DNA from: Blasia pusilla
Lineage: Eukaryota
Assembly (NCBI GenBank): GCA_050084515.1
Contig: CM114271.1
Location: forward strand, 7,440,001 to 7,504,000
Direction: 5' to 3'
DNA: 64,000 nucleotides
The number at the start of each line of letters is the position of its first letter. Position 1 is the stretch's first letter. Under the pieces are notes generated by a model. It worked only from the letters and a program-made list of their open reading frames with translations. It did no database searches and was not told where the DNA came from. Positions 1-62,345 of this stretch are shown one piece after another. The translations under genes and the position numbers were made by a program.

Positions 1-216
1 CATCGTGAATGTCTCGGCCACCTCTCGTCTCCTCACCGACCTCTGGATCTAAGGACTCTCCATTAGACCTTGCCATCAAAGTCTCAACAATCTGGCTCTC
101 CATAGCCAACAAGCCCAAATAGGCTGACGCATGCCATCCTTGCACCAACTCCTGATCACTCTCACCATACCAAGGAGCTCTAGTCATATCTCGCCGACTC
201 GGGCATGGGTTACGGC

Positions 217-2500
217 TCAAACCATCTGCATCTTGGTTGAGCATCCCAGGTCTATGCACCACCTGGAAGCCATACTCCTGCAACAAAAGAGCCCACCTCG
301 CAAGCTTCTTGTAAGCTTGTCAAACTCCATTAACCACTTAAGTGGCTGATGATCAGTAATGATGGTAAAGGGATTACCAAATAGATAACATCTAAAATGT
401 GCGACAGCCCATACTGCATCCAAGCACTCACCCTCATGCGAGCTATACTTTTCCTCTGCAGCGTTGTTCGAGCGACTAGCATAAGCCACCACAAACTCTC
501 TACCATCATCGTCATGCTGGGTGAGCACGGCTCCAAGCCCCAAAATGCTCCAATCGGTATGCAATTGGAAAGGACGCCCCGTGATCAGTCTCCTCAATAT
601 GGGCGCGGACGTCAATCTGTCATTGACCATGTGAAATGCTCTCTCTTGCTCATCCCCCTAGTGTCGCAACCCTCATGACCAAACGAGTGCCAAAGCGGAA
701 CATCGGAACATTAGCAGGCTCACGCTAAGATGGTTTGCGCGTTGGAGTGATCTCGAAGAAAAGACAAGAGACAGGACGCAAGCGAGGCTTTGCGTTTCAG
801 ATGTTGTGGTCGCGACGGAGAAACCTGGACCAAACGCGGAACAAGACTTGAAAGGAGTTGAGTCTAGAAAGTGGGTTGCCAAAGGAAGAATCCGGATCTG
901 GGACGCCACTAGCGTTTGAGAGTTTCCGACTGTACTTATGGCCATAACTTTTAGCGCCAAGATGCATTTGGATCGAACAAGAGTACGTTGGAAGACTTAT
1001 GGAAAGACGGTTCAAACGCACTAAAGATCTTTGCAAACGCATAAGCAGCGGCTGAGAAACAACCCGGAAACGACTGTAAGTAGAGCCGGGTTGAGGGCCA
1101 CAATGAAGGGCCCGACCCTCCTTTTCCAAAGGGAAAGGGGGGTTATTGGAGAACCCCAGAAGTACTAGTAAGGGGGAAGTCTCCAAGAGTGCTTAGAACT
1201 CGAACCCCACTTTGGGCGCCACGGGGCGGCTCAAGGGCATGGAACAGATCGAGAGTTTGGGGTTGGGTTGGAAAACCTGAACCAAGTCTATGGAGGTGAT
1301 TTTAGACATCCCTCTTGGATTTCACCCCGCGCCTCAATTACTTGGGTCTCGGTTTGGAACTCACATGAGGTCCGTTGAACAGTTGGGATTGCTAGGCGCG
1401 CAAGTGCCATTTTAGATTCCTAGACTAATCAGGAAGTCTGTTCCAAGTCTTGAAGGACTTGCCATGTGTTGGAAACTAGGAAGTAAGTAAGGTTGAGCTT
1501 GATGAGACGCCGAGTTGAGAACTCGGTTGGCTGGAACGCTGGTTGGCTCTGACCCGAATAAGGAGAGTGCGTGTTTGGGTGCAGATTGGCGATGAGATCG
1601 TGTCCTACTGAACGTACGCTTCCGCAATAATAAAGACTGACATTCAAGGAAAGTAGGGCGCGACACCTAGTGCCACTCCTGATCCACCTTGGTTATCAAG
1701 GTTAGGGGCTTCGCAATCGAACTGAAAACCTTGACATACCATCGATAGAAGTTCGCCAATCCCATGAATGCACAAACTTGACTCACATGTGTAGGTCGTG
1801 GAATGCGTGAAATAGCCTCTACCTTTGTCCACTGCACACTAAGTCCCCTTGGGTATATCGTATGACCCAAGTACTCAATCTGGCCAAAGAAGAACTTGCA
1901 CTTGCCAGGATGTAGCTTCAGCCCATGTAACTACAATGGTCGGAACACCTCCTCTAGATGTCTCTCATGCTCCTCAACGGTGGCGCTAAGGACTACGATG
2001 TCATTACTTTAACACCTAGCAAAATCCAGACCTACCAAGATCCTATCCATGATCCTCTGAAACTCAGCCGGGGTGTTCTTTAACCCGAATGGTAAGAACC
2101 GCCATTGGTACAAACAATCCTTCTCGTGAGGATCGATGCCCCAAAATGCCCTCTTCTACCTGTCCTCCAATCTAATAGGCAACTCATGGTTTCCGGCTCG
2201 CAAATCCAATGAACTAAAGACCTTTGCATGCCCAATCGCATCAAAGATCTCCTTAGGGATAGGCATGGCATACGTATCGGACTTCCTCTACCGATTGATA
2301 GGTCAGTAATCTCCACACATCCGCCTATCCGTCCAGTTGTCATGCACATCCTTCTTGGCGGGCATGACAGTGCACGTGGCAGATGCATACTCTCCATGCA
2401 ACATCTCCACTAGTCTTGCTCCAACCAAGTCCTGGCTCCTACTCTGAATCAGAGCCCTCTCCATGTCACTGTACTTGTTGGATCGTCGAAAGATCGGTGT
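217..2500 (-). pseudogene. RT-RNase H region of copy A, split by the solo LTR at 662-1665
   Basis: ORF pieces GRPFQLHTDWSILGLGAVLTQ...HFRCYLFGNPFTIITDHQPLKWL, GHTIYPRGL...FMGLANFYR and DRRMCGDY; contains stops and frameshifts. Confidence 0.9.
662..1665 (+). mobile_element. Solo LTR of the chromovirus family found at 19556-26897
   Basis: TGTCGC...CGACA ends, perfect 5-bp TSD CCTAG (657-661 and 1666-1670), reverse-complement similarity to the chromovirus LTRs. Confidence 0.93.
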
Positions 2501-2877
2501 GTCACTCGACAACTCAATGGGGATCCTTGGACCCTTTAGCGTACCCAAATCATGCATACTAAATGCAAAACAGCTCCTAGAACTCCTAAGGAACTGGTGT
2601 ATCTGGCGCTGCTCTCCTCCTATCAACTTAGGGCCCATATCTCGCTCCCAAGTCTCCATCGTGACTACAGTAGGACTCTCCGGCATGGGTGTCGGTTGTT
2701 GATATGGTGGAACCCCATCTCCGATAGTAGAACTCTCATCTCCACATGCAGTACCCAGAACCATACTCGATGCTGTGGCTATCATCTCTTGGTGTACCTG
2801 CAAAACATCCCAAGAAGTCCAAGGGTGTCTCTCCTGATCACCCCTAGTGTGTCGATCTCCTCGGGTCTCGCCCCCAG

Positions 2878-3871
2878 TGTCGCACCCCTTCTCTCCTTGA
2901 ATGTCAATCGTTATTGTTGCGGAATCGTACGTTCAGTAGGACACGATCTCATCGCCGATGTGCACTCAAACACACACTCTCGTTGGTCGGGTCTGGGCCA
3001 ACCAACGTTCCAACCCACCGAGTTCTCAACTTGGCGTCTCATCAAGCTCAACCTCCCTTACCTCCTAATTTCCAAAACATGGCAAGTCCTTCAAGACTTG
3101 GAACAGACTTCCTGATTAGTTCAGGAACCTAAAACGGCACTTGCGCGCCTAGCGATCCCTACTGTTCAATGGACCTCGTGTGAGTCCCAAACCGAGACCT
3201 TAGATAATTGAGTCGCGGGGTGAGGGATGTCTAAAATCGCCTCCATAGACTTGGTTCAGGTTTTCCAACCCAACCCCAAACTCTCGATCCGTTCCATGCC
3301 CTTGAGCCGCCCTGTGGCGCCCAAAGTGGGGTTTGAGTTCCAAGCACTCTTAGAGACCTTCCCCCTTCCTAGTACTTCTGGGGTTCTCCAATAACCCCCC
3401 TTTTGGAAAAGGAGGGTCGGGTCCTTCGTTGTGGGCCTCAACCCGACTCTACTTGCATTCGTTTCCGGGTTTTTTTCAGCCGCTGCTTATGTGTTTGCAA
3501 AGATCTTTAGTGCGTTTGAACCGTCTTTCTTTAAGTCTACCAACGCACCCTTGTTTGATCCAAATGAATCTTGGCGCTAAAAGTTATGGCCATAAATACA
3601 GTCGGAAACTCTCAAACGCTAGTGGCGTTCCGAATCGGGATTCTTCCTTTGGCAACCCACTTCCTAGACTCAACTCCTTTCAAGTCTTGTTCTGCGTTTG
3701 GTCCAGGTTTCTCAATCGCAACCATAACATCTAAAAAACGCGAAGCCTTGCTTGCGTCTCGTCTCTTGTCTCTCCTTTGAGACCACTCTAACGCGCAAAC
3801 CATCTTAGAGTGAGCCCGCTAATGTTTGGATGTTCCGCTTTGGCACTCGTTTGGTCATGAGGGTCGCGACA
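2878..3871 (-). mobile_element. Solo LTR of the same chromovirus family, opposite orientation
   Basis: TGTCGC...GCGACA ends, TSD CCCAG/CCCAA (4/5 match), direct similarity to 19556-20555. Confidence 0.92.
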
Positions 3872-3955
3872 CCCAACCACTGCCTCAACCGCCTCGGTAG
3901 GCATGGGGCTCACCAATGCAAAAGCTGTAATCTGTCGCATCCTCAAACGACGATG

Positions 3956-4925
3956 CTAAGCTACTCCTAAGCTGAAAATCCATGTCAAGCAGTTCACGTC
4001 CATTTCCTGACCCAAGACATGACGTCGTGATGCCTCTGATAGTGATGGTACTGCCATCACTCCTATGGGAAATCCCATCGCTTGCTCTCGCTCATCGGCG
4101 TTGGGCTCCACCAACCTCTGTACTTGGTCATTCCAAACCAAGCCAGGTCCGGCCTCCTTGAATGCATAGGAAGCGGTAAAACTCACCAATGTGGGAAAGG
4201 CTGCCCTTGGCCTGCCAATCATGTTGACCACAGTCAACGGCGGTTGATCATCTGGCCTCTTTGCCTGTGATCGATGGCGTGGATCCAATATAGAATCCAC
4301 CAACAAATTGGAGGGGTGCTCCACTCTCGCATATGCCCTCCGTAACACCTCATGTGGTACCAAGTTTGTCCACCAAAGACACAGGCGTTGTGCTCGTGAA
4401 CCCAGACTCGCCGCATCTAACAACAGTGCCGGGCCGATCCATATGCATACCTGATGTGCACTCGTCACCACGCGGGACCTCGAATTGCCCAAAATTGGCA
4501 CATTCTCCAAAATGTATGCTAGAGAACGAGGCTGATGCTCTTGTAAATGTTGCAAGATCCGCATTATCTCCCAAAACAACCTAGACCGAGTGTCAGCTAA
4601 CCCGCTACCTCATCCAACACTCGATTGGCCCTAATACGGCCAACAAGCAATGACCAAGTCTATGGTCCCTACCCGCTCCAAGTCTTGCGCCCCCAACAAT
4701 GAAATTTCCCTCGATAGGGAACTCTGGTAACCTTGAATGGCAGACACAGATAACAAGTTGGGGAAATGGAGGCGTAACAGCGCCACATGGTGAAGTGAAG
4801 CGCGCCTCACATCATCATCAATCTCCACATATAGGTACTGCTGCACGCGCACTCTAGCCTGCAAAATAGCAGCTAACATAATGCTGATCCCTCCAAAGAG
4901 ATCCAACACCCAAATACCCTTTTCT
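3956..4925 (-). pseudogene. DNMT3-like C5 cytosine methyltransferase domain inside pol, copy A
   Basis: Motif I VLDLFGGI (4886-4909), II YVEID, IV IDLVIACWPY* (decayed GWPCQ), VI YILENV, VIII LDAASLGSRAQR..WWTNL, IX EREQAMGFP, X RRHVLGQ, in linear (non-permuted) order. Confidence 0.88.
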
Positions 4926-5329
4926 GGGATGCACCACACAAACAGGGTGGTGTCCAAAGGGGTCATAGCAGCACTCCTGCCTACTTGGGGTTCCTCTAAC
5001 TTGTCACACTCTGGTGTAAACGTCTTGCTCCATGCGGTTTGCACATGCTCAGTGGCTAAGCGTCAAAGCTCCTCAGTCGAGCCCCAAAGTGGAACCTCTC
5101 CTCCACGGACTGATGCGGCTACTACGACACTCCTCTGCATATAAATGTCAAGAACGGGAGTATCCTTTGCATGGACATGTCCCTCAATCAAATCACTAGG
5201 CCAAGTGATGGCACTACTAAATGCTGCTAAGGTTGCCATCTCTCCTGGCCGTTGCTTGATCATTGAACCTATGAATCGAACGGGTAATGAGCTAAGGCGT
5301 CCATCACCTGATTTCCATCCTGGTCTGTA

Positions 5330-5727
5330 GGACGCAGACTCCTCCCAGGAATCCAGGGAGAACCCCATCGGATATAACACTGCTCCACCAACCAAGACGT
5401 CGTAGGACTCTTCATCAGTCACTATCGCCTTGGCTCGCACCACAGACTCATCTGTGGGATGTCCCGGGTAAATCCTCACCACGACCTCATGTTGGGTGAT
5501 ATACTGTGTGGTACTCGCTCTACCCAAGGATGTCTCTATCCAGAATGGCAACGCTCCACATCGGCTCTCGTCAAGCCCAATCCTCTGAATGACGCTTTTC
5601 CCAACATCAGGGGTTGCGCTCCTGAATCCAACAAGACGCATTGCGGACTAAAAGCTTTACCTTCGCGACTTACCAAGTGGAAGACCTCTCGTTGGTTATC
5701 CAGCAACACAACACCAGGAGAAGCCAT
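5330..5727 (-). pseudogene. Aspartic protease domain of copy A
   Basis: VLLDSGAQPLMLGK and downstream YDVLVGGAVL, split by a frameshift. Confidence 0.8.
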
Positions 5728-6044
5728 GACACACTCCTAGCAGCCGTAGCCTGCCATGAATCTGACGTGGACGGCCCGAGCATCCGCTCCAAGGGCAGGT
5801 CCATCACCTCCTCTGCAATCACCTCTGAACATGCTGCAAGAACTCCAACTCCACGCTCACATAGCGGAGCGGCCAGCCAAAAAGCCTTGATGGGCGTACC
5901 TCCCAACGTCATAACATCGGAAGCAGAAAATAAAGGAGCGCGGTACACAACGATGGCCGCCCCCAACAACGTGCTCGACACATGCCCCTCCTAAGCATCA
6001 ACAATAGGAGTCTCCGCACTTGCTTCTCCCATTGCCCTCTATGC

Positions 6045-7104
6045 CTACACACCAATAGCATCATCAACTCTCCAGGAACTCTGATTAGGACCCATCGATG
6101 GGGTTCTCATCGCCTCGGACAACCTGAAAGATTGAGGAAGCCTAGTCTGTTTCCTAGCTTCCCCTTGCTGTGGATCTAACTCTGCGGGTGCTCCACGCGT
6201 CACAACTGCGGTGGCCTCCATCTGGGCAACCCCGCACATCCAACCAAGATCCTCCACATCTGTGGCTACTCCATATGATGGTGATGCCACGGATCCGGGA
6301 TCGGGTATTCTCAATGCCATAGTGGCAATCTGCTCCTGTAGCTGATGTATCTTAGCAGCCATCCTAGCCTCATGCCCGACATCTCCCTCGACGTGTCTAG
6401 GTGGTGGGAATCTACCTCCTCCACGGGTAGCTCCACCATCCTGTTGGGCAACTCTAGCTCCTCGTCCCCCAACGGGACCACCACGTGCAAGATCTCTAAG
6501 CCCACCCGGACCGGCTACTCGCTCTAGTGCCCTCTCTGGCCCTCGGTCTAGACGTAACTCAGAATGTAAACTGAAACACCAAGCGCGTGTATAACCATAT
6601 TTTTGACAATAGTCACACTGATAACCTCCTGGTGCAACACCATCTCCTCCTCCATGTTGAGGCACACATCCATGAACCTGAAGAGTGCAATCACGCTGAT
6701 GATGGGCTCCACCACATGACCAACAAGTAATCATAGACGGCTGCTGCTGAAGCGCATATGAAGGTGCAAGTGTCTGTGGCATGGCCTCTTGATATCCTCC
6801 CTAAGCTCATGATGCCACAGTTGACCTATCTCGGAGTCCACATTGCTCCACAAGTGCTGCAGAAAATCGTGACTGCTCTCGCCCAAAACCCATGGTTGCT
6901 ACGCTCTCCTCTGCCATGTTGCGCTCAATATTCTCGGCGGTCCTAAAAATATCTCTCAACATAGGGAAGGTGTTCATATGAAGCACCCCCTCCTGCATCC
7001 ATGTCCGTAGGGTCCCGTCCAACATCGCGTACCATGAATGGATAGCGTGAGCCTCTATCACCTCCTGAGTGACGTTGATCAACCGCCGCAAGCAAGTGTA
7101 AGCA
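6045..7104 (-). pseudogene. gag (C-terminal part) of copy A
   Basis: CWSCGGAHHQRDC and CDYCQKYGYTRAWC zinc-knuckle-like motifs; AYTCLRRLINVTQ matches the gag of copy C. Confidence 0.8.
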
Positions 7105-32437: not shown

Positions 32438-34869
32438 CGATTTTGACGGGTTTCATTTGTTTTATGAGCTTTTTGTTTTTTACAGACTCTGGCTAGATCT
32501 TATGGTTAGTTTTATTGTCTTATAATTTTTCAAATGCTGACGGTTTGCAAGATAAAAAAAAATTAAGACAAGACAAGCCTTGAAACCTATTAGATTCCGA
32601 CAAGTTGCATGTTTGAATGGATGGAATCTGGCTATTTTCTAGCATATGGATGCTTCATTTTTCTATATCATGTCTTGCAAGATGTCGTATTTCTCACAGG
32701 TTGCATGTCTGAATGGAATCTAAGATTTTCTTGCATTTCTCTACTTTGTCATATTTGAGTAGCCGATAGGCCGAGATCTATCGTGGATAGGGCGTGGGAG
32801 CCACTGGACTATCTTGAGTGTTACTTTGTCCCATGGTGTCGGATGAGGTTGAGGATAGGTCCATTGTGTCAAAAACGTCATTTTTGACAACTTTCTTGTT
32901 GAGGTCTTTCATAGCCGGGTGACTTGTTGACCAGGTCACCCACCCCTGGTAACTTGTGCGCACAGGTTACCAGGAGAAAAGCGATTTTTAGGGGAAGAGC
33001 CTTTTGGATCTTTCCAACCCTATATAAGGGAGGAAGATGGCTTTCCCAAGCCATCTATCCGTGAGAAAACAAAAAGTGACGAAATCACTGAAATCTTTAC
33101 AAAACTTAGAGATCCGTGCATCTAGTCCGTCTGTGTACGCTCACAGAAGAGCTTCGATGGAACCTAAACTAGAGATAACTCGACTGGGTGTGCCCTTTTA
33201 ACTACTCTTTATTTTTACATGAGAAAGATGTCAGGGGGCTGGTGGGAATGCATTGTTTGCAGGTAGGCAAGCGAGTTGCCTCGGTGGGGAGCTGTGGAGA
33301 TGCCGATTGACATTTTTTTGTTGGTCATTTTGTGTTCAGAAGGCCGTGCACGGAAGCACTGTCCATTTTTTGCAGATTTCTTTGGTGCACATTGACGCAA
33401 GACAGAAGCCGCATATAGCATGCGGTGTGGCATTGAGTGTACGCAAGCGGGTGTGTCGAGAAAGAGCAAGAAGAAGTTGCAGTCACCTTGAGGAGGTCGG
33501 CTAGGCCAGGTTAGGTTGTAGCCTCCTAGGGCATGTTTTAGGTCATTGTAGAGTTGCCGGGACCGGGAGTGAGGGTCGTCGGGAGGGCGGTGAGCACGGC
33601 CGCAAAACCACCCCCCCTGCAGTTTGGGAGGCGCCCCCCCCCCCCAACACTTGGGAGGCGTGCATAGGGTCGCTCGTCCCCCTTCTCTACACACGTGCAT
33701 AGGGATGTGGGCCAAGGGCCTGACGACCCCTCCCCCCCGCCCCACTTTTTGCGGACGTGGTCGGCGCCAACTTCGGGAGCGCCGTGGTTGGCGCCTCTCA
33801 CCCAATGTGGTAGCAGGATAGGGTGTACATCGTAGCGGTGAAGGAGACGTGGTAGCAGGGAAGGAGACGTAGTAGCGGTGCGGGCAACGTGGTAGACGGG
33901 CTGACATGGTTGAGTTCAGACAGAGTGGAGTAAGGTTACATGGCACGTTTGGGGATGGACGGAGAGGTGTGCGCGACGTGATGTTTTTCGGGCATGGTTG
34001 GGATTTGTGAGAGTTGCGATGGAGACATACACGTTGATGCTCACGGGAGGTTTGACGTGTGTGCGAGGAGATGGTTGTGCTACGGAGGTTGTCATGCCAC
34101 ACGTATGGAGTGGATGTTGACGGTGTAGTAGGTTGGTGGGCGTGATCAAGTTACCCATTCGAGTCCCTTTTCTCGCACTTATCTTCTGTGATTGAGAGTG
34201 CTAGGTATCGGGTGGTAGTTGGTGCTAGATGGATGCAGTGATGGTGACGAGTGTAGACTCTTTTCATGTGTAGCATGTTGGTCGATATACGGCGGTTGCC
34301 GAGTAGGGGTCGCATGTATGACCTGAGCGTGTCGATAGGTTAGGTGAGTTAGTAGGAGGCTCATGGTGAGCCTCAGTGTTTAGTGTGCGTGAGGTTGGGT
34401 GTGTCATCACGAGATTGATGTTAGCATAGGTGAGCTAGTGAGGAGTGTGGGAGACTCTTGGTGAGTCTGAGTGCTTGAGCGGGTGAGATAGGTCATCACG
34501 GTGTTCTTCCACGGTTCAAAAGAACAGGGTAGTGCGAGCAGTAGTAGTGGTGTGACACATAGTGGACTGAGATACCGAGGGGTTATGAGTGAGGAGCTAC
34601 CTCGACATCCATTCGTGGCTAGATCGTCATCACTAGACATTGGGTTTGGTGATGAGATTGCAGACACAGGCAGTATCACTTGGCACGAGATGGACGACAT
34701 GGGCCATCGGGGCATACGTCATTTCTCAGGGTGGGCACCATTGAATTAGATGATTTTATCCAGGATTTCGACAAGTGGTGCGACTTCCAAGAGATACAGA
34801 CCCCGACACGGTTCAACCCTTTCATGGCATGGAAAGGGTTGTTCTAGCACTTGGAGGGTCCTCCGATGG

Positions 34870-36126
34870 TGTGATACCCACAATTTTGTAATCTTGAAGA
34901 ATATATCTTTTTATTCAACGAAGACTCTTGTATAGTATGATTTTGATTATGATTATCTATTATTATGAAGAAGAATAAGTGAATCACCAAGCTCCCAAGA
35001 CAAGGCAGAGAGATGGAAGATCAAGGATTTGCCTTAGAGGAGAATCAAAAGCTGTAACGAAGTATAAAGGATCAACGTGAAGCTCAGCGAAGCTTAACAA
35101 AGTCTAACGAAGCTCAACTAAGCTCTATATACGAAGTACCTCGCTCTTGACCGAAGAGCGAAGCACGAAGAGCGAAGAGCGAAGCACGAAGAGCGAAGAG
35201 CGAAGCACGAAGAGCGAAGAGCGAAGCACGAAGAGCGAAGAGCGAAGCACAAAGACGAAGAAGAATGAAGAACTCCGTCCTGCGGAAATTTAGCGCAGCG
35301 AAGCTCCGCATGATTGTGATTCGAACCGACACATAGTTTAAACAATTAGACTAGGAAAGGGCGCGACCCTTTGTATCAAATTGGTAGTTAGAACAATTTT
35401 GTACCGCGGATTCACAGGGATCGTAGGAAAAGCTAAGAGAACCATAGATCTAGGTAGTTACAGATATTGAAGAGACACCAACTTCATCAAGAACGCTTCG
35501 CATCATAGAAACGCTCCTACTCTCGAGAATATTTAAGAAACAGGACAGAAGCTATCATTATCATTCGCTCATGACGTCCTTATGCTATAGGAATGGTCCG
35601 AGCAAGAGAGTTGTACCCTCTCGAGCTTGTATATACTTTAAAGTCTTCCAATTCTTGATGGAGTAGTAAAGCATTCATTCATTCATTCTGATGTGCGATG
35701 CTTATGTCTGAATACTCTTTTTGGGTCTGCCGAGTGAAGAGTGAATCAGGCGAACCTTTCTCATCAATGGAATAATCAACATAAAGTTGTATGAAATCTG
35801 TTTGACAGAGAGTAACCTGCCCCGACGGATTGAGTTCCGAAAGTAGGAGAAGCCAGTTTTATTGTTGAGGTCTCTGTGAGGTTCCGAGATGTCGAGAGAA
35901 CAAATTGCCTGAGCGTACTTTAAACTCCACTCGAGAGAATTGAAGAAGAAAACATAGGTACTAAAAAAGATCGGAAGATGTTACTGGAATACTACATTTG
36001 AATTACATAATCAATTACACTTTTACAACGTAATCATCACTTTATACTCTCTTTTCATCCAACAATGATCCTCTTGGGGATCGAACTCTACAATTGACTG
36101 TAAATCAAAAACACTTAGACATTACA
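34870..36126 (+). mobile_element. Solo LTR (~1.26 kb) related to the Athila-like family, inside copy B gag
   Basis: TGTGATACC...ATTACA ends, TSD GATGG/TATGG; the gag peptide LEGPPM/DDY rejoins across it. Confidence 0.88.
35153..35250 (+). repeat. 21-bp minisatellite (GAAGAGCGAAGAGCGAAGCAC) x ~4.7 inside the LTR
   Basis: Perfect tandem copies visible directly. Confidence 0.95.
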
Positions 36127-38664
36127 TATGGATGACTATATGGAGATTCAATCATTATATTTAGTAGAGATCGATGCCTGGAGGATGTATTAGGCTCTAG
36201 GGTATGTGTCCTCTAGTGGTCGCGAGGCATATGATGGGATCGTGAGAGGAGAGAGACCCACACCATCAACCCGGAGACTAGATGGAGAGGAGGGCAGTGA
36301 GATAGGTGATGTGGCAGAGACCTCTAGTGGTAGAAGGCCACCCAGCTTCAATCCCATAGTGGAGTTCTTCCAACAGTTGGGGAAGAGCTACCAGGGCGTA
36401 TGCACCAACAAGTTGAAGCGTCTATAAGATTTTCAGCGACGATCGGGTGAGAGTCTGAGAGAGACATTCACACGCATGAGGAGGCTGATCATTGCTACGT
36501 ACGAAGTGATTGAGGCGTAGTGAGTCTATTATTGGTATAGGGTTCTGGATTGAGAACTATGGAGGAGAGTCTGAGAGGCGGTGCTGATTCACACAGCGAA
36601 GCCCACATTGAAGGTGGTCTTTGAGTTTTCTGAGCGTATTGAGCTCAACATGAGTGAGGAGCAGGTAGTAACCGCCGGATTTTCTCGAGAGTCGACGGGT
36701 CCACGAGCGACGGTGACCCCACAGGTGCCACAGCGAGCACTAGTACCACGGGAGCAAGCCAGTGTCCCCAGAGAGTAGGCCCCGTACCGTGAGCCTATGA
36801 GGCAATGACCCGCACCTACATATGTTGCCCAACAGGGACCGATGTTGTCTTGTTGGACATGTGGAGGGGCCCATAGGCAAAGAGACTACACACAACATGG
36901 GAGAGGACCACGAGCGCTTATGATTGCGCAGGAGTCATAGAGGATGGCCCCACCAGAGTACCAATGTGATTATTGCCACTAATATGGTCACACTAGGGAT
37001 AGATGTTTTAACCTTCGTCCAAAGGCACGTCCAGAGGTAGGCTGAGGGCTTGGGGGCGGTCATCTTGGAGGAGGTCGGGGAGTTCTTCCTGGACGTGGTG
37101 GTAGAGGACCACCACCAGCCAGAGGAGATGGAGCAGGAGCACCAAAGCCGGCACTTCTTTCAAGCATCAATCAGTTGGACCAGAGGATTGCAACCATGAC
37201 GATGATGCAGCTCAAGGAAGGTAGGGAGCTACGAGCAGCTAGTGTGGCTCCAACTTCTACCTCTTACCCTCACCTGGGTGAGGATCTTGCTAGTATGGGG
37301 TTTATGTGTAGTGCAGCTCAGGTTGAGGTAGCTGCAGTGGTGACTCAAGGTGCTACGAGAGGCACCAAGCCATCGAGAGGTGGAGTTGAGATTTACCCAC
37401 CAGAGGGGACCGATGGGCGGCAGGCCAGGGTTCCACAGTCATTCACATTGTCGGAGGCATTACACACACCATCGATGGTGCCTTGACGACCAGCAGTGCC
37501 TACAGCTCAGTCAGGTACGTTGACGTCACAATAAGTTGGAGTGACAACTCCTATGCCGGCTTGAGTGGAGTCAGTGTCCACCATAGTGTTGGAGGTGGGC
37601 ACCAGAGTGAGTTAGACTCCGCTATTTTCCGCCATAGAGTTGGCGCCGTTGGGAGTTGGACCAGTTGAGGTGTTCCGGCTAGCCGCCACATTGTGCGAGC
37701 GTAGAGAGGTGACTGCTTCTTGTTCAAAGGTAGTTGAGGAGGTGGTGGATCGGACTTGCCCTTAGAGCCGGTGCTCGGGACATCCCCATAGAGTCATGGC
37801 ATGCGGCGGTGGCGAAGTTGGTAGATATGCCGGCTCAACCAGCCATAGAGCGAGCAGTGGTGACACTTGGAGTAGTGTTACTGGATAATCGAGCTGGAGT
37901 ATTTCGCTTGGTTAGTCCGACGGGGATAGTTTACCACCGGCAGCGTATCCTACTTCATTCGAGAGGGCAACCCTTGATGTTAGGGAAGGCGGCGTGTTTA
38001 GTGTTGGGGTTACGGAAGGCCAACATTGAGACTTGTCCCTTCCAGATACAGACCTCGATTGGGAGCGTGTCACCCACACAGTATATGACTCGACAGGAGA
38101 TAGTTGTCAGAGTCCAACCAGAGCATGCGACGGATAGTGCTATGGTGCGCACACGTGCGATTACAACACCAGTTGAGTCGTATGATGTGTTGATGGGGAG
38201 TATAGTGTTATCTTCCCTAGGATTCATCCTTGACTTCTAGGAGTGACCGTTGCTTATTGGCTAGGGTGGCGGTTAGTTGACGGGCAGATGAGTCAGTTAC
38301 CCATGCAGTTTGCGAGACAAGGTGGTTGAGTACGAGACGAGTCTGTGACCACGTTGGCAGCTTTTACAAGTAGTGTTAGTTGGCTAGGAGAGTTGTTGGA
38401 GGGGAACGCACATGCGGAGGATGTCCCAGTAACGGATAGTCCCACGGATAGACAGGCCATGGCGGATGTCTCTTCCCATGTTGGCAAGACCTCTTCACCA
38501 TTGTGGGGTACAACTCGAGAGCTATAGAGGATTGCCGACGACCTTGTCAGGCAAGCATGGAGTCATGCCTTTATCCCGAAGCAGCGAGAGTCAGGTGGCG
38601 ATCGGGTTCTTGGGTGGATACGTTCACCCCACTGGATACCACACCGATTGTGTGGCAGTGTCTA

Positions 38665-39645
38665 GAGGAGGGTGTTAGATCTCTTCAAAGGGATTAGCAC
38701 CGGATTGGATGCAATATTACAGGCTTGCATATGGGTGCATCAGTACCTTTATGTGGAGAGAGATGAGACCGTGCGGTGAGTATCATTGCGTCAAGTGGCG
38801 AGATTGCTCCAGAGGTATCCTGAGTTGTTTCCGGTATCTGCAGTACGTGGATATCATCATACACTACCCGCCAAAATCTCTTTGGTGGGGGCGCAGGATC
38901 TGGATAGAGTTGGCACCATTCATTTGGTGATTGTTGGATGGCCATGTCAAGGTCATTCATCAGCTGGCCGAGGATTTGGATTGCAGGATCTGAGGTGAAG
39001 GATGTTTTGGGAGATGCTACCAGTAGTACGGCACTTGCAGGAGAATCGGCATATTCTCCGGCATATATTTTGGAGAACTTTCCATTTTTGGGAGACACTC
39101 ATGCACGTGTGATGACGAGTGTGCATCAAGTGAGGTCTTGGTTGGGACCTACTCTGTTGCTAGATGCAGCGATAGTTGGATCACGCGCCCATCATCCATG
39201 ATTGTGGTGGACAAACCTGATACCATCAGAGGTATTGAGTCGAGTATACGATGGAGTCCAAAGAGCACCACATCTCACAATGGATGCTATTTTGGGCTCA
39301 GGACGTCAATCTCAAGTGGTGACGCAGGCTGATAAACCACCGTTGGCGATGGCCAATAGGGTGGGGGAGTTGAGGGTAGCCTTACCTACGTTCGTGAGCT
39401 TCCAAGCATCCCATGCCTTTTATCAAGGAGGTCCAGGCATGATTTGGGATGAGGTGACCCAAGCATTAGAGGAGCCTATAGCAGATGAGTGTGAGCGCGC
39501 TATGAGGTTTGCTACAGGTACTACAGCGGAGCCAAGTATGACTGAGGCATCCGAGAGACAGGTGTTGGGGCAGGTGATGGACCTCAACTGTCTCACATGG
39601 ATAGTCAACCTAGGTATGGCTAAGCAGAGATGGATGCGAGTGTAA
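38665..39645 (+). pseudogene. DNMT3-like C5 cytosine methyltransferase domain inside pol, copy B
   Basis: DLFKGIS (I), YVER (II), HLVIVGWPCQG (IV, catalytic Cys codon 38945-38947 intact), YILENF (VI), LDAAIVGSRAH..WWTNL (VIII), ECERAMRF (IX), RQVLGQ (X). Confidence 0.9.
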
Positions 39646-40014
39646 TCCATGCCGTCACGTCCACGAGTTGGACCATTGCCTACATGCTTTGTACATGCAT
39701 TGGCTAGGGGCGGGACGAGGAGAGATAGAGACCTGTGGACTTCTTGGGATGTCGTTCGAGTGGAGAGTGAGAAGGCTAGAGTAGCACATGTTCCTTTTTT
39801 GGATGTGGAGCATGGTGTAGGAGGTTAGAGTGGACTGGCTATTGTGCAGGTGGCTAGGGTTGCTACATAGCAACCAAAGCCGTAGGTTGCGTCATCTCCG
39901 AGTGAGGTCGCGATGGAGACTGGGGAGCCTATGATAGGTCTCAAGTTGATAGGAAGAGAACGACGGTGAGTTCATAGGTTTCTGAGAGGGCATATCAATT
40001 TTTTTGCCTTTAGT

Positions 40015-42760
40015 ATGAGAGACTTGGGTATATTGAAGGACCCTAGGATACGGATTGAGTTGGCTAGTGATACGCCAATCTTTCGTCAACCCTACAAGTA
40101 TTCTGATATGGAGCGAGCCCTGATTCAGAGCAAAAGTCAGGACTTGTTGGAGGTAGGACTTGTGGAGTTATCACATGGGGAGTATGCATCTGCCACAGTC
40201 ATGCCGGAAAAGAAGGATATGTATGGCAATTGGATGGATAGGCGGATGTGTGGAGATTACCGTCCTATCAATCGACAGACGAGGTCAGATCGGTACGCCA
40301 TCCTACTCGCGAGGAGATCTTTAATGTGGTAGGGCATGCAAAGATCTTCAATACTTTAGATCTCCGTAATGGCTATCATTAGCTTCCTATTAGGTTGGAG
40401 GAAAAGGAGAAGACAACATTCTGGGGGATAGATTGGTTCGGGAGAGATTGCTTGTATTAGTGGCGGTTCTTAACATTTGGGTTGAAGAACGCGCGTGCAG
40501 AGTTTCAAAGAGTGATGGATGGGATTTTGGCTGGCTTGGATTTTGTACGATGTTACATAGATGATATTCTTATCTTAAGTTCCACGGTTGAGGAGCATGA
40601 GCAACACCTGGAGGAGATATTTCGGCGATTGCAATTACATGGACTGAAGTTACATCCAGGCAAGTGCAGATTCTTTCAAGAGCAGATTGAGTACTTGGGA
40701 CACACCATATACCCGAGTGGGTTAGGCATTCAGCAGACAAAGGTAGAGGCTATTGCACAGATTCCATGCCCTACAGATGTGAGTCGAGTCCGACCATTTC
40801 AGGGACTGCCGAGCTTCTATTGACGGTATGTCAAGGGTTTGAGTGCAATATCAAAGTCTTTGACCTTGTTGACGAGACTTGATCAGGTTTGGTTGTGGGG
40901 AGATGATAAGGAGCGACCATTTCAAGAGCTCAAGGACAGGTTGACTTCCTCACCCATTTTACAGAGACCGGTTAGGGGTCGCCCATTCCAGTTACATACG
41001 GATTGGAGCATGTTGGGTCTAGGAGCAATGCTTACTCAGAGGGACGACGAGGAGAGGGAGTTTGTTGTGGCTTACGTGAGCCGATCAAACAACATTGCAG
41101 AGGCAAACTACAGCTCTTACGAGGGAGAGTGCTTGGCTGCAATGTGGGCCGTGGCACATTTTAGGTGCTATTTATTCAGCAACCCTTTCACACTTATCAC
41201 TGATCATCAGCCGTTGAGGTGGTTGATGGAGTCCGACAAGCTTACGGGAAAGCTTGCAAGATGGACTCTATTACTACATCAGTATGAGTTTGAGGTGGTT
41301 CATAGACCATGTCAGCTGAACCAAGATGCGGATGGGTTGAGTCGTAACTCATATCCGAGTCGGAGAGATGAGGAGATGGTGCCCGGTTGGCATGCATCTG
41401 CCTATCTTTGTTGGTTGAATATGGTAGGTCAGCCACAGGTGATGACTCCAGTGGTGGGGTTGGATGATGAGTCTTTGGGTCCGAAGGTCGAAGGTCAGTG
41501 AGGAGGCGACATGTGATCGTGATATCCATGACGACATGGAGGTTGTGGAGTTGTTGCGCATTGGCGTCATAGCGAGCATAGTGAGTACTAGGGAGCGGGA
41601 TCGGATCCTATAGAGAGCCATGAGGTTCAGGTGGGAGGGGACTCACATTTTTTGGGTATGGAGAAATGGTAGGATACGAGTGGTACCTCATCCTTCCCAT
41701 CGAGCACGTGAAGTGCGACATACCCATGAGGAGTTGGGGCATTTTGGAGTAAAGCGTACTTACAGCTTACTCCACGTTTAGTATTGGTGGCGCGGCATGC
41801 ATACTAGGGTAGAGCAGTTTGTGGCCAGATGTATGGTATGTGATAGAGTGCGAGCATCCTTCAATGCTCCCACTCCGCAGTTACATCCTTTGCCGATTAT
41901 GGATTTAGGTTATCGGTGGAGTTTAGACTTTGCGGGACCTTTGCCATTGACGAGGCATTATCACAGGTATGTGTTGGTCATGGTGGAGCATTTCTCCAAG
42001 TAGATAGAGTTGGTGGCACTACCGGACAAGGCGAGCAAGGGAAGAGCTTATGTGTTTCTAGATCGTGTGCTTAGTCACTTTGGTGCACCGGAGGAGGTGT
42101 TGATTGACCAGGGTACCGAGTTCAAGGGAGAGTTTCAGGCCTTGTGCGATCAGGCGCAGATAGATCACCACACCACATTGAGAGATCATCCTGCAGCGGA
42201 TGGGTTGGCAGAGAGAGTTGTACAAATAGTGAAGAGAGGATTGCGCAAGTATGGCTTGTGGCCAGGATAGTTGAGGGAGTGGGACCTACAGTTGCCATGG
42301 TTGGCTATGGGTTATCGCTTTAGTCAGCAGGCATCCTTGGAGTTATTTTCACCGTACTTTTTGCTCTTTGGGAGAGAGCCAGATTTACCTGCAGGTATTC
42401 TACGTGACATGCAAGAGATGTTAGATCTTGATGATCCAGATGTGTGGGTACAAGCGTGTTCTTAGAAAGCGGAGATTTTTTGTAGAGTTATGCTTGTGGC
42501 CTTTGAGAACTTAGCTATTGCTCAGCATAGAGATACATTGAGGTACGCGACCATTCGTGGAGGAGGTTATCGTCCAAGGATTAGGAGGTTTCATCTTGGA
42601 GATTACGTGTATTTATAGCAAGCGGTACCCACGACGCTAGATGTCACTGCAGGGCGCACGATCCTACGTGTGTGCGAGGTATTACCGACCGGAGTCCTCA
42701 TGTTGGAGGGACGGATGGTATGGTATGGAAGGATCATGTGCCCAATGGTACGCCATGTCA
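40015..42760 (+). pseudogene. RT, RNase H and integrase of copy B
   Basis: RRMCGDYRPIN, CYIDDILI, FQLHTDWS, HEELGHFG...CMVC, WSLDFAGP, DQGTEF, GLAERVV. Confidence 0.93.
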
Positions 42761-42821
42761 TCTTCCAAACGTAGACGGGATAGTGGATCCGAGCTTGGCA
42801 CTGGAAGCTGCATGCTTGAGG

Positions 42822-42957
42822 TGTATGTTATGCGGATCTACGAGGGATGCAGCCACCATGTTGGTATGTGATGGTTTTTCTCGAGGGTGGCATATGTCAT
42901 GTCTCGACCCCCCCTCTTGATGTATTTCCGATAGGACGATGGATGTGTCTGAGATGT
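42822..42957 (+). pseudogene. PHD finger at the integrase C-terminus of copy B
   Basis: CMLC...MLVCDGFSRGWHMSCLDPP-(frameshift in C run)-LDVFPIGRWMCLRC; C4HC3 spacing with one Cys lost. Confidence 0.85.
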
Positions 42958-60100: not shown

Positions 60101-61078
60101 AGTAGCTCTAGAGGTTTTACGCGGAGTGGCGTGAGGTTCCGAGGGTCTTCACTTCAGGGACCACCTCGATCTCCTTGTGTGTCATCGTCAGACAAGGGGA
60201 GGGTGTAGAGGAATTTGTGAGCACATCGCCACACATTGTGAGTGGTCCTACCCGTTGGGCGTACGAGATGGACAACCGGGATAGAGGACCACGTAGGTTT
60301 TCAGGTGCAGTAGATACAATTGAGTTGCATGATTTCATAGCAGAGTTTAGGAGTTGGTGCGACTCCCAGCGGGCCAGGAACTCTAGAGAGTTTAACCCGT
60401 TTACAGCATGGAACGGTATGTTCCAGTATTTAGAGGGGGCACCCATGGACGATTACCATGAGTTTTCCCACAGATATGCCCAGGAGATTGAGGCATGGCG
60501 ACTCTACTACGACCCACACTATGTGTCATGGACGGAGCCGTTCCTAGATAAAGAGGAGGAGTCACAAGAGGCTACTTCCTCTTCCACAAGTGATGTTTTA
60601 GGAGGGGTCATTTGCACTGGAGCAGTTGCACCGTCTAGTCGGGTTCGTCCCAGGTTCAACCCCGTGGTTGAGTTCTTTGCTAAGTTGAGGGCGAGCTACC
60701 AACGGCTACGGACAGAAAAGTTGCGGAGCATCCACAACTTCCACAGGCGCCCGGGTGAGAGTTTACGTGAGGCTTACACTCGCTTGCGCCGGTTGATCAA
60801 CGTCACTCAGGGGATGACATAGGCTCAGGCTATACAGTACGCGATGTTGGACCAGATCTTGCGGCCACGGGTGCGGGAGGGGGTGCTTCTTATGAACACC
60901 TCCCCTACGTTGAGAGATGTTTTTAGGACCGCCAAGAACATTGAGCGCAACATGGCGGAGGAGAGCGTAGCCACCATGGGTTCTAGGCGAGAGCAGTCAC
61001 GATTGGTTGCACCACCTGTGCAACAACGTGGACTCTAAGATAGGTCAACTGTGGCACCACGAGCTCAGGGAGGATACC
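57147..61078 (+). mobile_element. DNMT-Gypsy family copy C: 5' terminus, long leader and N-terminal gag only
   Basis: Start matches 27746. gag MDNRDRGPRRFSG...YLEGAPMDDY...REAYTRLRRLINVTQ matches copies A and B. Contains a rearranged foreign LTR (57210-58259). Confidence 0.82.
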
Positions 61079-61079
61079 G

Positions 61080-62345
61080 GAAGTCCACACGAAAGATAGG
61101 CAAAGGAAACATCACAAGTAAGCGGCTCTTGCTCCGATGAGCACTCAAGGTTTGAGAGTTCACATGTGCCTTCGGGAATTTCTCCGATGATGAGGTTGCT
61201 TGATACATTGAGAGTTGAATCAAAGTGCCAACATCATCGGGGATGTTGCCATTGAAAGAATTCTTGCTCAAGTCAAGATACATACAGAAGACCGATGAGG
61301 TTGCCAATGTTTCTTGGACTTTGCCCACTCAAGGCATTGTGACTTAAGTTCAGAGTCTGCATTTGATGCCAATTGACACTCTGAGAGAGCAATCCAACTA
61401 TGGTGCCAGTGAATCTATTCCGTTGCAAATTTAGCTCCACGACTCCCAACAACTATATCAGAGAATAGGGTGTTTCACCCATGAGCTGATTTTCACTCAC
61501 ATCCAGGTGAGAAAGATTGCTCAGGTTTCCTAGCCTATCAAGCAAGGGGCATGAGAGTTGATTCCCCGTCAAGATGAGCTTCACCAAGTTTCCTATATTA
61601 TCGAGATCTGGAGGAATAGTCCCAGTGAAATGATTGTATGCTTGGTTCAAACCTTGCAGCTTGTGGGCCTCCCCCAACTAGGCAAGAATAGAACCCGTGA
61701 GTCTACTATTTGAAAAGTCCAACCTCATGAGGTTGGTAAGCCTGGCGAGCTCCGCTCAAACAGGTCCCATGAATTGATTGCACGCCAAGATCAACTCCAC
61801 AACCACAACACAGACTCCCATCTGAGGAGGGATTTTTCCCAATAGATTTTTGTAAGAGAGGTTGAGCATTCCGTGATGCTGGATGAATCTTGACACTGGA
61901 ATAGCAATTGCTTGAAAATCTGCGCATATCGTACTTGGAATAGGAACAAATAGCTTATTGTTGGAGACCATCAAATAGTCCAAGTTCATGAGCTGCCCTA
62001 TCCCGGCAGGTATGGGGCCAATGAGTGTGTCCGACTACAAAAGAATGGGTCTATCCAGCCTGTTACGGCTAAAAAAAATTGCTGCAATTAGAAGAGACTC
62101 CCGGAGCATTAAGGAATGGCACCTAGGAATCCATTCGCATAAAAATCGAGCTCTGCGAGTGTAGTGAGGTGAGTGAGAGTGCAAGAGAGGAACCTATCAA
62201 AGTAGAATGGAAATATTGAGCCCATTAACCCTAACTTGTCTAGAGAAGATGCCACACAAAATAGAAACCTGTCCGGATCATCAACTTCCCTCTTGAACTC
62301 CAACAGCAGCAGCACGAGAGCATTGGATTCACAATAGCATTGCAT
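61080..62345 (-). pseudogene. LRR receptor-like kinase ectodomain fragment, EMS1/EXS-like
   Basis: Plant LRRs plus the island-like stretch ICADFQAIAIPVSRFIQHHGMLNLSY and KLQGLNQAYN...LVKLILTGN, as I recall them from EMS1; stops, frameshifts, no TM or kinase domain. Confidence 0.8.

What the first reader, a model, noticed from the sequence alone, without database searches (positions are those of the whole stretch)
38665..39645. Second, diverged copy keeps the MTase at the same position with the catalytic PCQ intact
Copy B is on the opposite strand, clearly diverged from A at the nucleotide level and decayed independently, yet it has the same domain at the same place with GWPCQG and ILEN. Motif residues are visibly better conserved than the flanking linkers. 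This implies the domain was carried through rounds of retrotransposition under selection. The lesions in A and B are largely complementary (A keeps motif I and ENV, B keeps PC), so an ancestral enzyme can be reconstructed.
Basis: partly seen in the sequence, partly recalled or inferred. Interest (0 to 1): 0.88.

Follow-up and report, generated by a model that had tools for sequence, protein, structure and literature searches.

The report
Dead retrotransposon copies carrying DNMT3 domain
These are two long-dead, independently decayed copies of a plant jumping gene that carries its own DNA-methylating enzyme; selection kept the enzyme part while the family was active, but this kind of element has already been described.

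Summary
Window 38663-39645 (+) is the DNMT3-like C5 cytosine methyltransferase domain of a decayed Ty3/gypsy element, copy B. Its order is gag, PR, DNMT, RT, RNase H, INT, PHD. Copy A (minus strand, about 7100 to 1) has the same domain at the same place (4960-3941).

The two copies differ far more at silent than at replacement sites in the DNMT (pN 0.27, pS 0.73; dN/dS about 0.03-0.23, with dS saturated). They share none of their stops or frame breaks, have no flank homology, and carry different nested insertions. They are therefore separate old insertions of a family whose DNMT was under purifying selection. It was less constrained than RT and RNase H and more constrained than gag, PR and the linkers.

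The modelled fold and the best solved-structure matches are DNMT3A/B/C. Close relatives with the same PR-DNMT-RT order are annotated ORFs in Marchantia, Calypogeia, Sphagnum and Riccia. RNA reads of the same species label show transcribed relatives reading through motif IV.

Gypsy-DNMT3 elements were described in Klebsormidium in 2018, so this is a new member of a known kind. Two copies only 55% identical cannot yield a trustworthy ancestor, and that step is referred.

The parts
34731..34886 (+). Copy B: N-terminal gag fragment (aa 18-69 of Marchantia P0124, 71% identity)
   Evidence: tblastn
34887..36127 (.). Nested insertion of unrelated repeats that splits the gag of B; its parts recur at 57214-57621, 57954-58259, 48214-48774 and 50843-51533
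36128..37744 (+). Copy B: gag with two CCHC-like knuckles; 14 stops in the aligned gag codons
37794..38237 (+). Copy B: aspartic protease region (aa 584-732 of P0124)
38246..38662 (+). Copy B: PR-DNMT linker; poorly conserved (34% aa identity to A)
38663..39645 (+). Copy B: DNMT3-like C5 methyltransferase domain (the finding). Motif I at about 38672, GWPCQG at 38936-38953, frame change at 39032/39034, ILEN at 39067-39078, stops at 38777, 38996 and 39199
39925..40823 (+). Copy B: reverse transcriptase (Pfam RVT_1, 83.9 bits)
40824..41393 (+). Copy B: RNase H (Pfam RT_RNaseH, 111 bits)
41518..42738 (+). Copy B: integrase (Integrase_H2C2 51.4 bits, rve 44.6 bits)
42822..42917 (+). Copy B: PHD finger after the integrase. 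It scores 17.3 bits here, below the cut-off; relatives P0144 and P0147 score 50.4 and 41.6 bits at the same place
5736..7100 (-). Copy A: gag, from about aa 175 of the reference; nothing recognisable further upstream
4961..5605 (-). Copy A: protease and PR-DNMT linker, in the same frame as the DNMT
3941..4960 (-). Copy A: DNMT3-like domain in one frame with stops at 4633, 4612 and 3958. Motif I and ENV are kept; the catalytic Cys-Gln is lost
2877..3872 (.). Solo LTR of another gypsy family, inserted in A between DNMT and RT; TG..CA ends and a near-perfect 5-bp target duplication
1676..2665 (-). Copy A: reverse transcriptase (RVT_1, 64.7 bits)
661..1666 (.). Second solo LTR of the same other family, in opposite orientation, inserted in the RNase H region of A; 5-bp target duplication
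167..654 (-). Copy A: RNase H; the element runs off the start of the window
60181..61095 (+). Copy C: a third gag fragment of the family (2 stops in 305 codons), 85% identical in DNA to the gag of A over 311 nt; no DNMT within the window

Best explanation
A and B are two separate, old, dead insertions of one family of Ty3/gypsy LTR retrotransposons of land plants. The single polyprotein of this family carries a DNMT3-type C5 cytosine methyltransferase catalytic domain between the protease and the reverse transcriptase, and a PHD finger after the integrase.

Shown here: the identity and position of the domain, the purifying selection on it while the two lineages were active, and the independent decay of each copy after insertion. 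That decay is mostly C-to-T and G-to-A, as expected for silenced, methylated DNA.

Inferred: in live copies the domain is made as part of Pol. It then methylates cytosines (probably CG, as DNMT3 does) on the element's new cDNA or on the freshly integrated copy. This would change how the host chromatin machinery treats the new insertion. The PHD finger probably steers integration by reading histone tails.

Neither copy in this window can make an active enzyme. A has lost the catalytic cysteine and has three stops. B has three stops and a frame change between motifs IV and VI.
For: Architecture. Pfam and tblastn place gag, PR, DNMT, RT, RNase H, INT and PHD collinearly in B, and gag to RNase H in A. 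In A one frame runs from PR through the DNMT to RT, apart from a nested solo LTR.

DNMT3 identity. A scores 33 bits on PF00145. All 25 PDB sequence matches are DNMT3A, 3B or 3C. The AlphaFold2 model has pLDDT 79 and pTM 0.83. Every chain listed by Foldseek (ranks 1-49) is DNMT3A, 3B or 3C, with target TM about 0.75-0.79 for the isolated catalytic-domain chains.

Selection. Over 319 DNMT codons pN is 0.273 and pS 0.726. dN/dS is 0.13 by NG86 (bootstrap 0.08-0.23), 0.23 by LWL85 and 0.03 by ML. dN by region: RT 0.17, RNase H 0.20, DNMT 0.34, PR 0.45, gag 0.55, PR-DNMT linker 0.71.

Neutral phase. Stop counts (12 in 1436 aligned codons in A; 23 in 1631 in B) give roughly 0.06-0.07 and 0.10-0.12 substitutions per site of neutral decay. 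Their sum is about the whole dN of RT.

Conserved columns. A and B each keep 37 of 40 family-conserved columns. W, P, C, Q of motif IV and E, N of motif VI are at least 90% conserved in 31 sequences.

Independence. None of the 6 DNMT stops, nor B's DNMT frame change, is shared. No flank similarity was found. A holds two solo LTRs with target duplications, and B holds a different insertion in gag.

Family. The same PR-DNMT-RT order is seen in Marchantia P0127, Closterium P0153 and metagenome protein P0136. 16 of the 33 longer homologues are Marchantia polymorpha ORFs.

Same pattern in relatives. In 561 pairs of metagenome copies, median dN/dS is 0.63 at dS 0.05-0.2, 0.51 at dS 0.2-0.5 and 0.15 at dS above 1.

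Decay spectrum. Against paralogous WGS reads, B has A or T where the reads have G or C at 153 places, against 48 the other way.

Transcription of relatives. In three stranded RNA runs of the same species label, reads cover 38922-38956 (motif IV). Their loose ends continue in frame with family-like residues, and nearly all have the first mate on the minus strand.
Against: Silent sites between A and B are saturated (pS 0.64-0.80). The ratio is therefore imprecise, YN00 failed in 5 of 6 regions, and only the direction is safe.

Codons were paired through tblastn against Marchantia proteins, which favours amino-acid matches.

No LTRs or target-site duplications of A or B were found. Only a weak 165-nt similarity exists (32581-32745 against 43310-43477; score 28.5 against a shuffle maximum of 19.5). 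Separate insertion therefore rests on indirect evidence.

The tree does not show whether A and B are distinct old lineages or sisters. The AU test does not reject them as one clade (p = 0.58), and both have long end branches.

Enzyme activity is not shown for any Gypsy-DNMT3. The 2018 yeast assay of the Klebsormidium domain was inconclusive (PMC5890265, section 10).

The RNA reads come from related copies, not demonstrably from A or B.
Confidence: 0.88

Rival explanations
1. A and B are the two arms of an old inverted segmental duplication of a single insertion. All their differences arose neutrally in place.
For: They lie 33 kb apart in opposite orientation in one window. No LTRs or target duplications were found to prove separate insertion.
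Against: Neutral divergence predicts pN about equal to pS and uniform identity along the element. Observed pN is 0.15-0.46 against pS 0.64-0.80. Identity ranges from not alignable in gag to 75.6% in RNase H. No lesion is shared, flanks show no similarity, and the nested insertions differ.
Confidence: 0.02
2. The domain is conserved, but not as a DNA methyltransferase acting on the element's own DNA. It might methylate RNA, serve as a folded spacer needed for polyprotein processing, or bind and interfere with host DNMT3 partners.
For: The Klebsormidium Gypsy DNMT3 domain gave no methylation in yeast, though the authors call that result inconclusive (PMC5890265, section 10). The same paper raises RNA methylation for the LINE-borne DNMT (section 11). 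The purifying selection measured here does not say which activity is selected.
Against: The catalytic signature is at least 90% conserved in 31 sequences: Pro-Cys-Gln of motif IV and Glu-Asn of motif VI. B and A each keep 37 of 40 conserved columns. The fold matches DNA-bound DNMT3A/B structures. A mere spacer would not need these residues.
Confidence: 0.12
3. The methyltransferase is a pseudogene of the host DNMT3 that happens to lie between transposon fragments, or an assembly chimera.
For: The closest solved structures are host enzymes, DNMT3A and DNMT3B.
Against: The same junctions (PR-DNMT and DNMT-RT) occur in A, in B, in Marchantia ORFs and in metagenome loci. In A the domain is in frame with PR and RT. 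Pfam reported no PWWP or ADD domain in the three frames of B's element or in A's DNMT and its translated flanks, and there are no introns.
Confidence: 0.01
4. The low dN/dS is an artefact of saturation and protein-guided alignment, and the domain drifted freely.
For: dS is saturated, and the codon pairing was protein-guided.
Against: Raw proportions need no correction: pN is 0.27 against pS 0.73. In the linker, aligned the same way, pN is 0.46 and aa identity 34%. Family-conserved columns are kept 34 of 40 against 142 of 285 for the rest. Independent pairs of metagenome copies show the same fall of dN/dS with depth.
Confidence: 0.03

Closest known systems
KnitGypsy-Dnmt3 of Klebsormidium nitens (de Mendoza et al. 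2018, PMC5890265; sections 9-11 read, figures and supplements not seen)
   Same: An LTR Gypsy retrotransposon with an intronless, non-rearranged DNMT3-type domain inside the Pol polyprotein. Key residues are conserved and the DNMT is under purifying selection (they report Ka/Ks below 0.2; here about 0.13 between A and B).
   Different: The host is a land plant, not a charophyte alga. The place of the DNMT within Pol in KnitGypsy-Dnmt3 is in a figure I could not see. Their element is said to have DIRS-like repeats, whereas metagenome relatives of the window's family have plain direct LTRs of about 310-340 nt. No K. nitens sequence was on hand, so common descent was not tested.
Annotated but, as far as my searches show, undescribed ORFs of liverworts and mosses (Marchantia polymorpha Mp_4g09160, Mp_8g17980, MARPO_0091s0058; Calypogeia fissa; Sphagnum; Riccia sorocarpa)
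   Same: They share the gag-PR-DNMT(-RT-RNase H) order, are 55-61% identical to A in the DNMT, and sit in the same 99%-supported clade in the DNMT tree.
   Different: Several of those have an open DNMT reading frame, whereas the window's copies are broken. A and B sit on long branches at the base of that clade.
Green-algal Gypsy polyproteins with the order RT, RNase H, DNMT, INT, PHD (metagenome P0144 and P0147; Monoraphidium MNEG_11595; Cymbomonas CYMTET_8324)
   Same: Homologous DNMT3-like domain (35-38% identity to A) and the same integrase plus PHD finger tail.
   Different: The DNMT sits between RNase H and integrase, not between protease and RT. These form a separate clade in the DNMT tree. 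The domain order was checked by Pfam only for P0144 and P0147.
SymbioDIRS-Dnmt3 of Symbiodinium (PMC5890265)
   Same: A retrotransposon-borne DNMT3 domain; this one was shown to methylate CG de novo in yeast.
   Different: It is a DIRS element with a tyrosine recombinase, in a dinoflagellate host, and the authors treat it as an independent capture.
Host DNMT3A/3B catalytic domain (e.g. PDB 6brr, 7v0e, 8tdr)
   Same: Same fold and motif order. The best sequence and fold matches are to these.
   Different: Only 18-21% identity, and no PWWP or ADD reader domains. The domain is embedded in a transposon polyprotein.

Membership tests
Gypsy-DNMT3 retrotransposons (type: KnitGypsy-Dnmt3) | Ty3/gypsy Pol domains in the order PR, RT, RNase H, INT | tested here: met
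   Pfam RVT_1, RT_RNaseH, Integrase_H2C2 and rve in B; RVT_1 in A; collinear tblastn to Marchantia polyproteins.
Gypsy-DNMT3 retrotransposons (type: KnitGypsy-Dnmt3) | Non-rearranged DNMT3-type domain inside the polyprotein reading frame, without introns | tested here: met
   In A one frame runs from PR through DNMT to RT. The motif order aligns to DNMT3A from motif I to motif X. The position is the same in B.
Gypsy-DNMT3 retrotransposons (type: KnitGypsy-Dnmt3) | Purifying selection on the DNMT among copies | tested here: met
   pN 0.273 against pS 0.726; dN/dS 0.03-0.23 depending on method, with dS saturated.
Gypsy-DNMT3 retrotransposons (type: KnitGypsy-Dnmt3) | Terminal repeat structure (described as DIRS-like for the K. 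nitens element) | tested here: inconclusive
   No terminal repeats were found for A or B. Relatives L006, L067 and L074 have plain direct repeats of 307-342 nt about 8.5-8.7 kb apart, and L044 has one of 159 nt about 9.7 kb apart.
Gypsy-DNMT3 retrotransposons (type: KnitGypsy-Dnmt3) | Common descent with the K. nitens elements | not tested
C5 cytosine DNA methyltransferase, DNMT3 type (Pfam PF00145) | Profile match above the curated threshold | tested here: met
   A scores 33.0 bits against a cut-off of 22. B's first piece scores 20.9 bits, just below, and B's second piece alone matches nothing.
C5 cytosine DNA methylase, DNMT3 type (Pfam PF00145) | Catalytic Pro-Cys of motif IV and Glu-Asn-Val of motif VI | tested here: inconclusive
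   The family keeps them in at least 90% of 31 sequences. B has PCQ and EN, then Phe. A has ENV but Tyr plus a stop in place of Cys-Gln. Each copy is therefore individually defective.
C5 cytosine DNA methyltransferase, DNMT3 type (Pfam PF00145) | DNMT3 catalytic fold | tested here: met
   Model pLDDT 79, pTM 0.83. All listed Foldseek matches are DNMT3A/B/C, E about 1e-15; target TM about 0.75-0.79 for the catalytic-domain chains.
C5 cytosine DNA methyltransferase, DNMT3 type (Pfam PF00145) | N-terminal PWWP and ADD reader domains of host DNMT3 | tested here: not met
   Pfam reported no such domain in the three frames of B's element (36001-43300) or in A's DNMT and its translated flanks. Only the catalytic domain is present, so it is not a host-type full-length DNMT3.
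C5 cytosine DNA methyltransferase, DNMT3 type (Pfam PF00145) | Methyl transfer to cytosine in DNA | not testable with these tools
   This needs an enzyme assay. The published assay of the Klebsormidium domain was inconclusive (PMC5890265, section 10).

The most novel reading that the evidence does not exclude
Ty3/gypsy elements with a DNMT3 domain and an integrase-PHD tail may be an old, plant-wide lineage rather than a curiosity of the Klebsormidium lineage. A PR-DNMT-RT form is found in liverworts, Sphagnum mosses, a Closterium alga and this large-genome land plant, where relatives are still transcribed. An RT-RNase H-DNMT-INT form is found in green algae. On this reading the methyltransferase was either captured once before these groups split and later moved within Pol, or captured twice by the same PHD-bearing lineage. 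Transposon-borne de novo methyltransferases could then add to the methylomes of land plants that carry live copies.
Probability: 0.35. Interest if true: 0.55.

Novelty: new member of a known kind. Interest (0 to 1): 0.3.

Why it matters
Cytosine methylation is the main way plants silence transposons, so a transposon that carries its own de novo methyltransferase is a paradox. It has been studied in one alga and in dinoflagellates only.

The window adds no new principle. It does show, together with the named liverwort and moss ORFs, that the same arrangement lived on in land plants. There it split into deep lineages under selection on the enzyme domain, and it is still transcribed in this species.

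That offers tractable hosts, Marchantia above all, for testing what the enzyme does for the element. In the one published assay of a Gypsy-DNMT3 this remained open.

Tried and rejected
Terminal repeats of A and B. blastn of the flanks and a local alignment with shuffled controls gave only a weak 165-nt similarity for B. The 3' end of A is outside the window.

Whole genome. None is held, so there was no census of copies and no dating by LTRs.

Sequencing-run index: no RNA holder listed, and only small shares of words in seven DNA rows. These shares were not used as evidence. Checking B's lesions against reads failed because depth over 38196-38683 and 39172-39903 is only about 1-5 and most laid reads come from paralogues.

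Tree. The free tree puts A and B as successive basal branches. The AU test does not reject them as one clade (p = 0.58), so no claim is made on whether they are distinct ancient lineages.

YN00 failed in 5 of 6 regions because of saturation.

Rfam found nothing in the window. The Atlas search with the 516-aa ORF at 13928-15478 gave no score above 0.77.

Literature. Searches for a description of these elements in bryophytes found none. They did find general mentions of Gypsy-DNMT3 in streptophytes (PMC12344493 and bioRxiv 10.64898/2026.05.21.726589; passages only). Supplements were closed. Those of PMC5890265 may show the domain order of KnitGypsy-Dnmt3 and whether land-plant copies were seen.

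Considered and rejected: host DNMT3 pseudogene, segmental duplicate, and alignment artefact (see the rival explanations).

Full report
**What is at the coordinates.** Window 38663-39645 (+) encodes a C5 cytosine methyltransferase domain.
- The landmarks are VLDLF from 38672, GWPCQG at 38936-38953, ILEN at 39067-39078, a C-terminal motif X region, and a stop at 39643-39645.
- Motifs IV and VI lie in different frames; the frame changes at 39032/39034.
- There are three in-frame stops, at 38777, 38996 and 39199.
- Pfam PF00145 matches the first piece at 20.9 bits, just under the 22-bit cut-off, because the domain is split.

**The element around it (copy B).** Pfam on the three forward frames of 36001-43300 and tblastn with Marchantia polyproteins give a collinear Ty3/gypsy element:
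- gag: 34731-34886, then 36128-37744 after a 1.24-kb nested insertion;
- protease: 37794-38237;
- a poorly conserved linker;
- DNMT;
- RT: 39925-40823;
- RNase H: to 41393;
- integrase: 41518-42738;
- a PHD finger: 42822-42917.

**Copy A.** The partner lies on the minus strand from about 7100 to the window's start.
- Its DNMT (4960-3941) reads in one frame with three stops, at 4633, 4612 and 3958. The same frame continues from the protease into RT.
- It scores 33 bits on PF00145. It matches only DNMT3A, 3B and 3C among solved structures (25 of 25 distinct sequences; best E 1.5e-6).
- A model of it, with X at the stops and a 31-row alignment, has pLDDT 79 and pTM 0.83. Every chain listed by Foldseek is a DNMT3A, 3B or 3C chain, with target TM about 0.75-0.79 for the isolated catalytic-domain chains.
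- A keeps the motif I glycines and ENV but has lost the catalytic Cys-Gln. B keeps PCQ and EN.
- A is interrupted by two roughly 1-kb solo LTRs of another gypsy family (3872-2877 and 1666-661). They lie in opposite orientations, with TG..CA ends and 5-bp target duplications.

**Separate insertions or a duplicate?**
- DNA identity between A and B is uneven: 64.0% in the DNMT, 73.2% in RT, 75.6% in RNase H, one 196-nt match at 67% upstream of the DNMT, and nothing in the flanks.
- Codons were paired through the Marchantia reference. In every region silent sites are near saturation (pS 0.64-0.80) while replacement sites are not (pN 0.15-0.46).
- None of the six DNMT stops, nor B's DNMT frame change, is shared. 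The nested insertions also differ.
- A neutral duplicate would give pN about equal to pS and shared lesions, so that reading is excluded.
- LTRs and target duplications of A and B were not found, so there is no direct target-site proof of separate insertion.

**Selection on the DNMT.**
- Over 319 codons, dN is 0.34 and dS is above 1.5. dN/dS is 0.13 by NG86 (bootstrap 0.08-0.23), 0.23 by LWL85 and 0.03 by ML. YN00 failed from saturation.
- dN by region: RT 0.17, RNase H 0.20, DNMT 0.34, PR 0.45, gag 0.55, PR-DNMT linker 0.71.
- Stop counts give a rough length of the neutral, post-insertion phase: 0.06-0.07 substitutions per site in A (12 stops in 1436 aligned codons) and 0.10-0.12 in B (23 in 1631).
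- Their sum about equals the whole dN of RT. By inference, roughly half of the DNMT's dN is post-mortem decay, and the ratio during the active phase was lower still.
- At the 40 columns that are at least 90% conserved in the family alignment, A and B each keep 37. They agree with each other at 34 of 40, against 142 of 285 elsewhere in the domain (p = 1.6e-5).

**Relatives.**
- The DNMT of A finds 143 proteins of similar length (E up to 1e-3; best 4.8e-126; about 60% identity). It also finds 33 longer ones, 16 of them Marchantia polymorpha ORFs. Others come from Calypogeia fissa, Sphagnum, Riccia sorocarpa, Marchantia paleacea and a Closterium alga, and most of the rest from unnamed metagenome contigs.
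- Marchantia P0127, Closterium P0153 and P0136 have the order PR or N-terminus, then DNMT, then RT.
- A more distant set (35-38% identity; P0144 and P0147) has RT, RNase H, DNMT, INT, PHD. Its relatives include Monoraphidium and Cymbomonas proteins.
- In a DNMT tree of 52 rows, A and B are long branches (0.44 and 0.42) at the base of a 99%-supported clade of 26 that holds all the named liverwort and moss copies. The AU test does not reject A plus B as one clade (p = 0.58). Whether they are sisters or older lineages stays open.

**Metagenome copies.**
- Eighty loci were fetched. Of the 34 that cover the domain in one piece, 3 have no stop and the rest have 1 to 11.
- Among their 561 pairs, median dN/dS falls from 0.63 (dS 0.05-0.2) to 0.51 (dS 0.2-0.5) and 0.15 (dS above 1). 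A further 95 pairs are saturated.
- This is the pattern expected when young differences are post-mortem and deep ones were filtered by selection, and A against B belongs to the deep class.
- Three of 30 loci examined (L006, L067, L074) have plain direct repeats of 307-342 nt, about 8.5-8.7 kb apart, around the DNMT. L044 has one of 159 nt about 9.7 kb apart. The family therefore has ordinary short LTRs.

**Reads of the same species label.**
- Of 2807 WGS reads laid on 36000-43300, 110 are at least 99% alike and 2697 are 95-99% alike. 1656 fit only in part, so most come from paralogues.
- Summed over the two read-direction columns, depth is about 46-129 over RT, RNase H and most of the integrase (40148-42099), about 13-21 over the first half of the DNMT (38684-39171), and 1-5 over its second half. 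This fits the faster evolution of the DNMT.
- B has A or T where these reads have G or C at 153 places, against 48 the other way. Its decay is therefore mostly C-to-T and G-to-A, the signature of deamination in methylated DNA.
- Three RNA runs give 69, 50 and 87 reads, nearly all with the first mate on the minus strand. In most stranded libraries that means sense RNA.
- Reads over 38922-38956 (motif IV) carry loose ends on both sides. Read by eye, these continue the frame with residues typical of the family. Related DNMT-bearing copies are thus transcribed in this species; nothing shows that A or B is.

**How it most likely works.**
- Shown: a DNMT3-type catalytic domain, without the PWWP and ADD reader domains of host DNMT3, is translated as part of the element's single polyprotein between PR and RT. 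It was kept by selection.
- Inferred from DNMT3 biochemistry and from the arguments of de Mendoza et al. 2018 (PMC5890265, section 11): it methylates the new cDNA or the fresh insertion. That could make the element look like resident methylated DNA, or shape local chromatin.
- Also inferred: the PHD finger after the integrase would read histone tails to steer integration, as chromodomains do in chromoviruses (argument in PMC6673714, passage read).
- Activity of a Gypsy-borne DNMT3 has not been demonstrated. The one published assay was inconclusive (PMC5890265, section 10).

**Comparison and novelty.**
- Gypsy retrotransposons with an in-frame DNMT3 domain under purifying selection (Ka/Ks below 0.2) were described in Klebsormidium nitens in 2018. 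Later papers speak of Gypsy-DNMT3 in streptophytes (PMC12344493; bioRxiv 10.64898/2026.05.21.726589; passages only).
- My six searches found no description of the liverwort and moss copies or of the two domain orders. Supplements were closed and most subscription journals are not in the library.
- The window's copies are a new member of a known kind, and both are dead.

**What was left out.** It would in any case be unsound from two sequences that are 55% identical with saturated silent sites.

Noticed in passing
window 19556-26897: A full-length copy of a different Ty3/gypsy family, with CCHC gag, PR and RT on the minus strand. Its two roughly 1-kb LTRs are 98.8% identical, have TG..CA ends and a 5-bp target duplication, so it is a young insertion. 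The two solo LTRs inside copy A (87-88% identical to these) belong to the same family.
   Followed up: partly
relatives P0144, P0147 (metagenome), P0196 (Monoraphidium), P0231 (Cymbomonas) against P0127 (Marchantia), P0153 (Closterium): There are two placements of the homologous DNMT3 domain in Gypsy polyproteins that share an integrase-PHD tail. It lies between RNase H and integrase in the green-algal set, and between protease and RT in the liverwort, moss and window set. The domain order was checked by Pfam only for P0144, P0147, P0127, P0153 and P0136.
   Followed up: partly
window 60181-61095 (+): A third gag fragment of the same family (copy C) has only 2 stops in 305 codons and is 85% identical in DNA to the gag of A over 311 nt. 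It belongs to A's sublineage, not B's. The rest of the element is not recognisable before the window ends.
   Followed up: partly
window 10741-12694 (+): Broken PIF1-like helicase ORFs (Pfam PIF1, 132.8 and 67.3 bits), as carried by Helitron transposons.
   Followed up: no
window 13698-15478 (-): A probable host gene. A 516-aa open frame is followed, in another frame, by an Ovate transcriptional-repressor domain (54.3 bits). From recall, this is a plant-specific family.
   Followed up: no
window 28412-28834 and 31411-31869 (+): Fragments resembling a Copia-type element. The first matches Pfam Retrotran_gag_2 (31.3 bits). The second looks like the C-terminal part of a Copia RT by eye but has no Pfam match.
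   Followed up: no
window 36000-43300, reads of run X13: Against paralogous reads, copy B shows 153 places with A or T where the reads have G or C, against 48 the reverse and 59 transversions. CpG observed/expected is 0.54-0.69 in A and B, against 1.01 in the young gypsy at 20000-26000. This fits long-term methylation-driven decay of the old copies.
   Followed up: partly
window 43381-43446 and 43695-43760: A 66-nt inverted repeat (92% identical) just downstream of copy B's PHD region. It overlaps the weak candidate for B's 3' terminal repeat, and its meaning is unknown.
   Followed up: no
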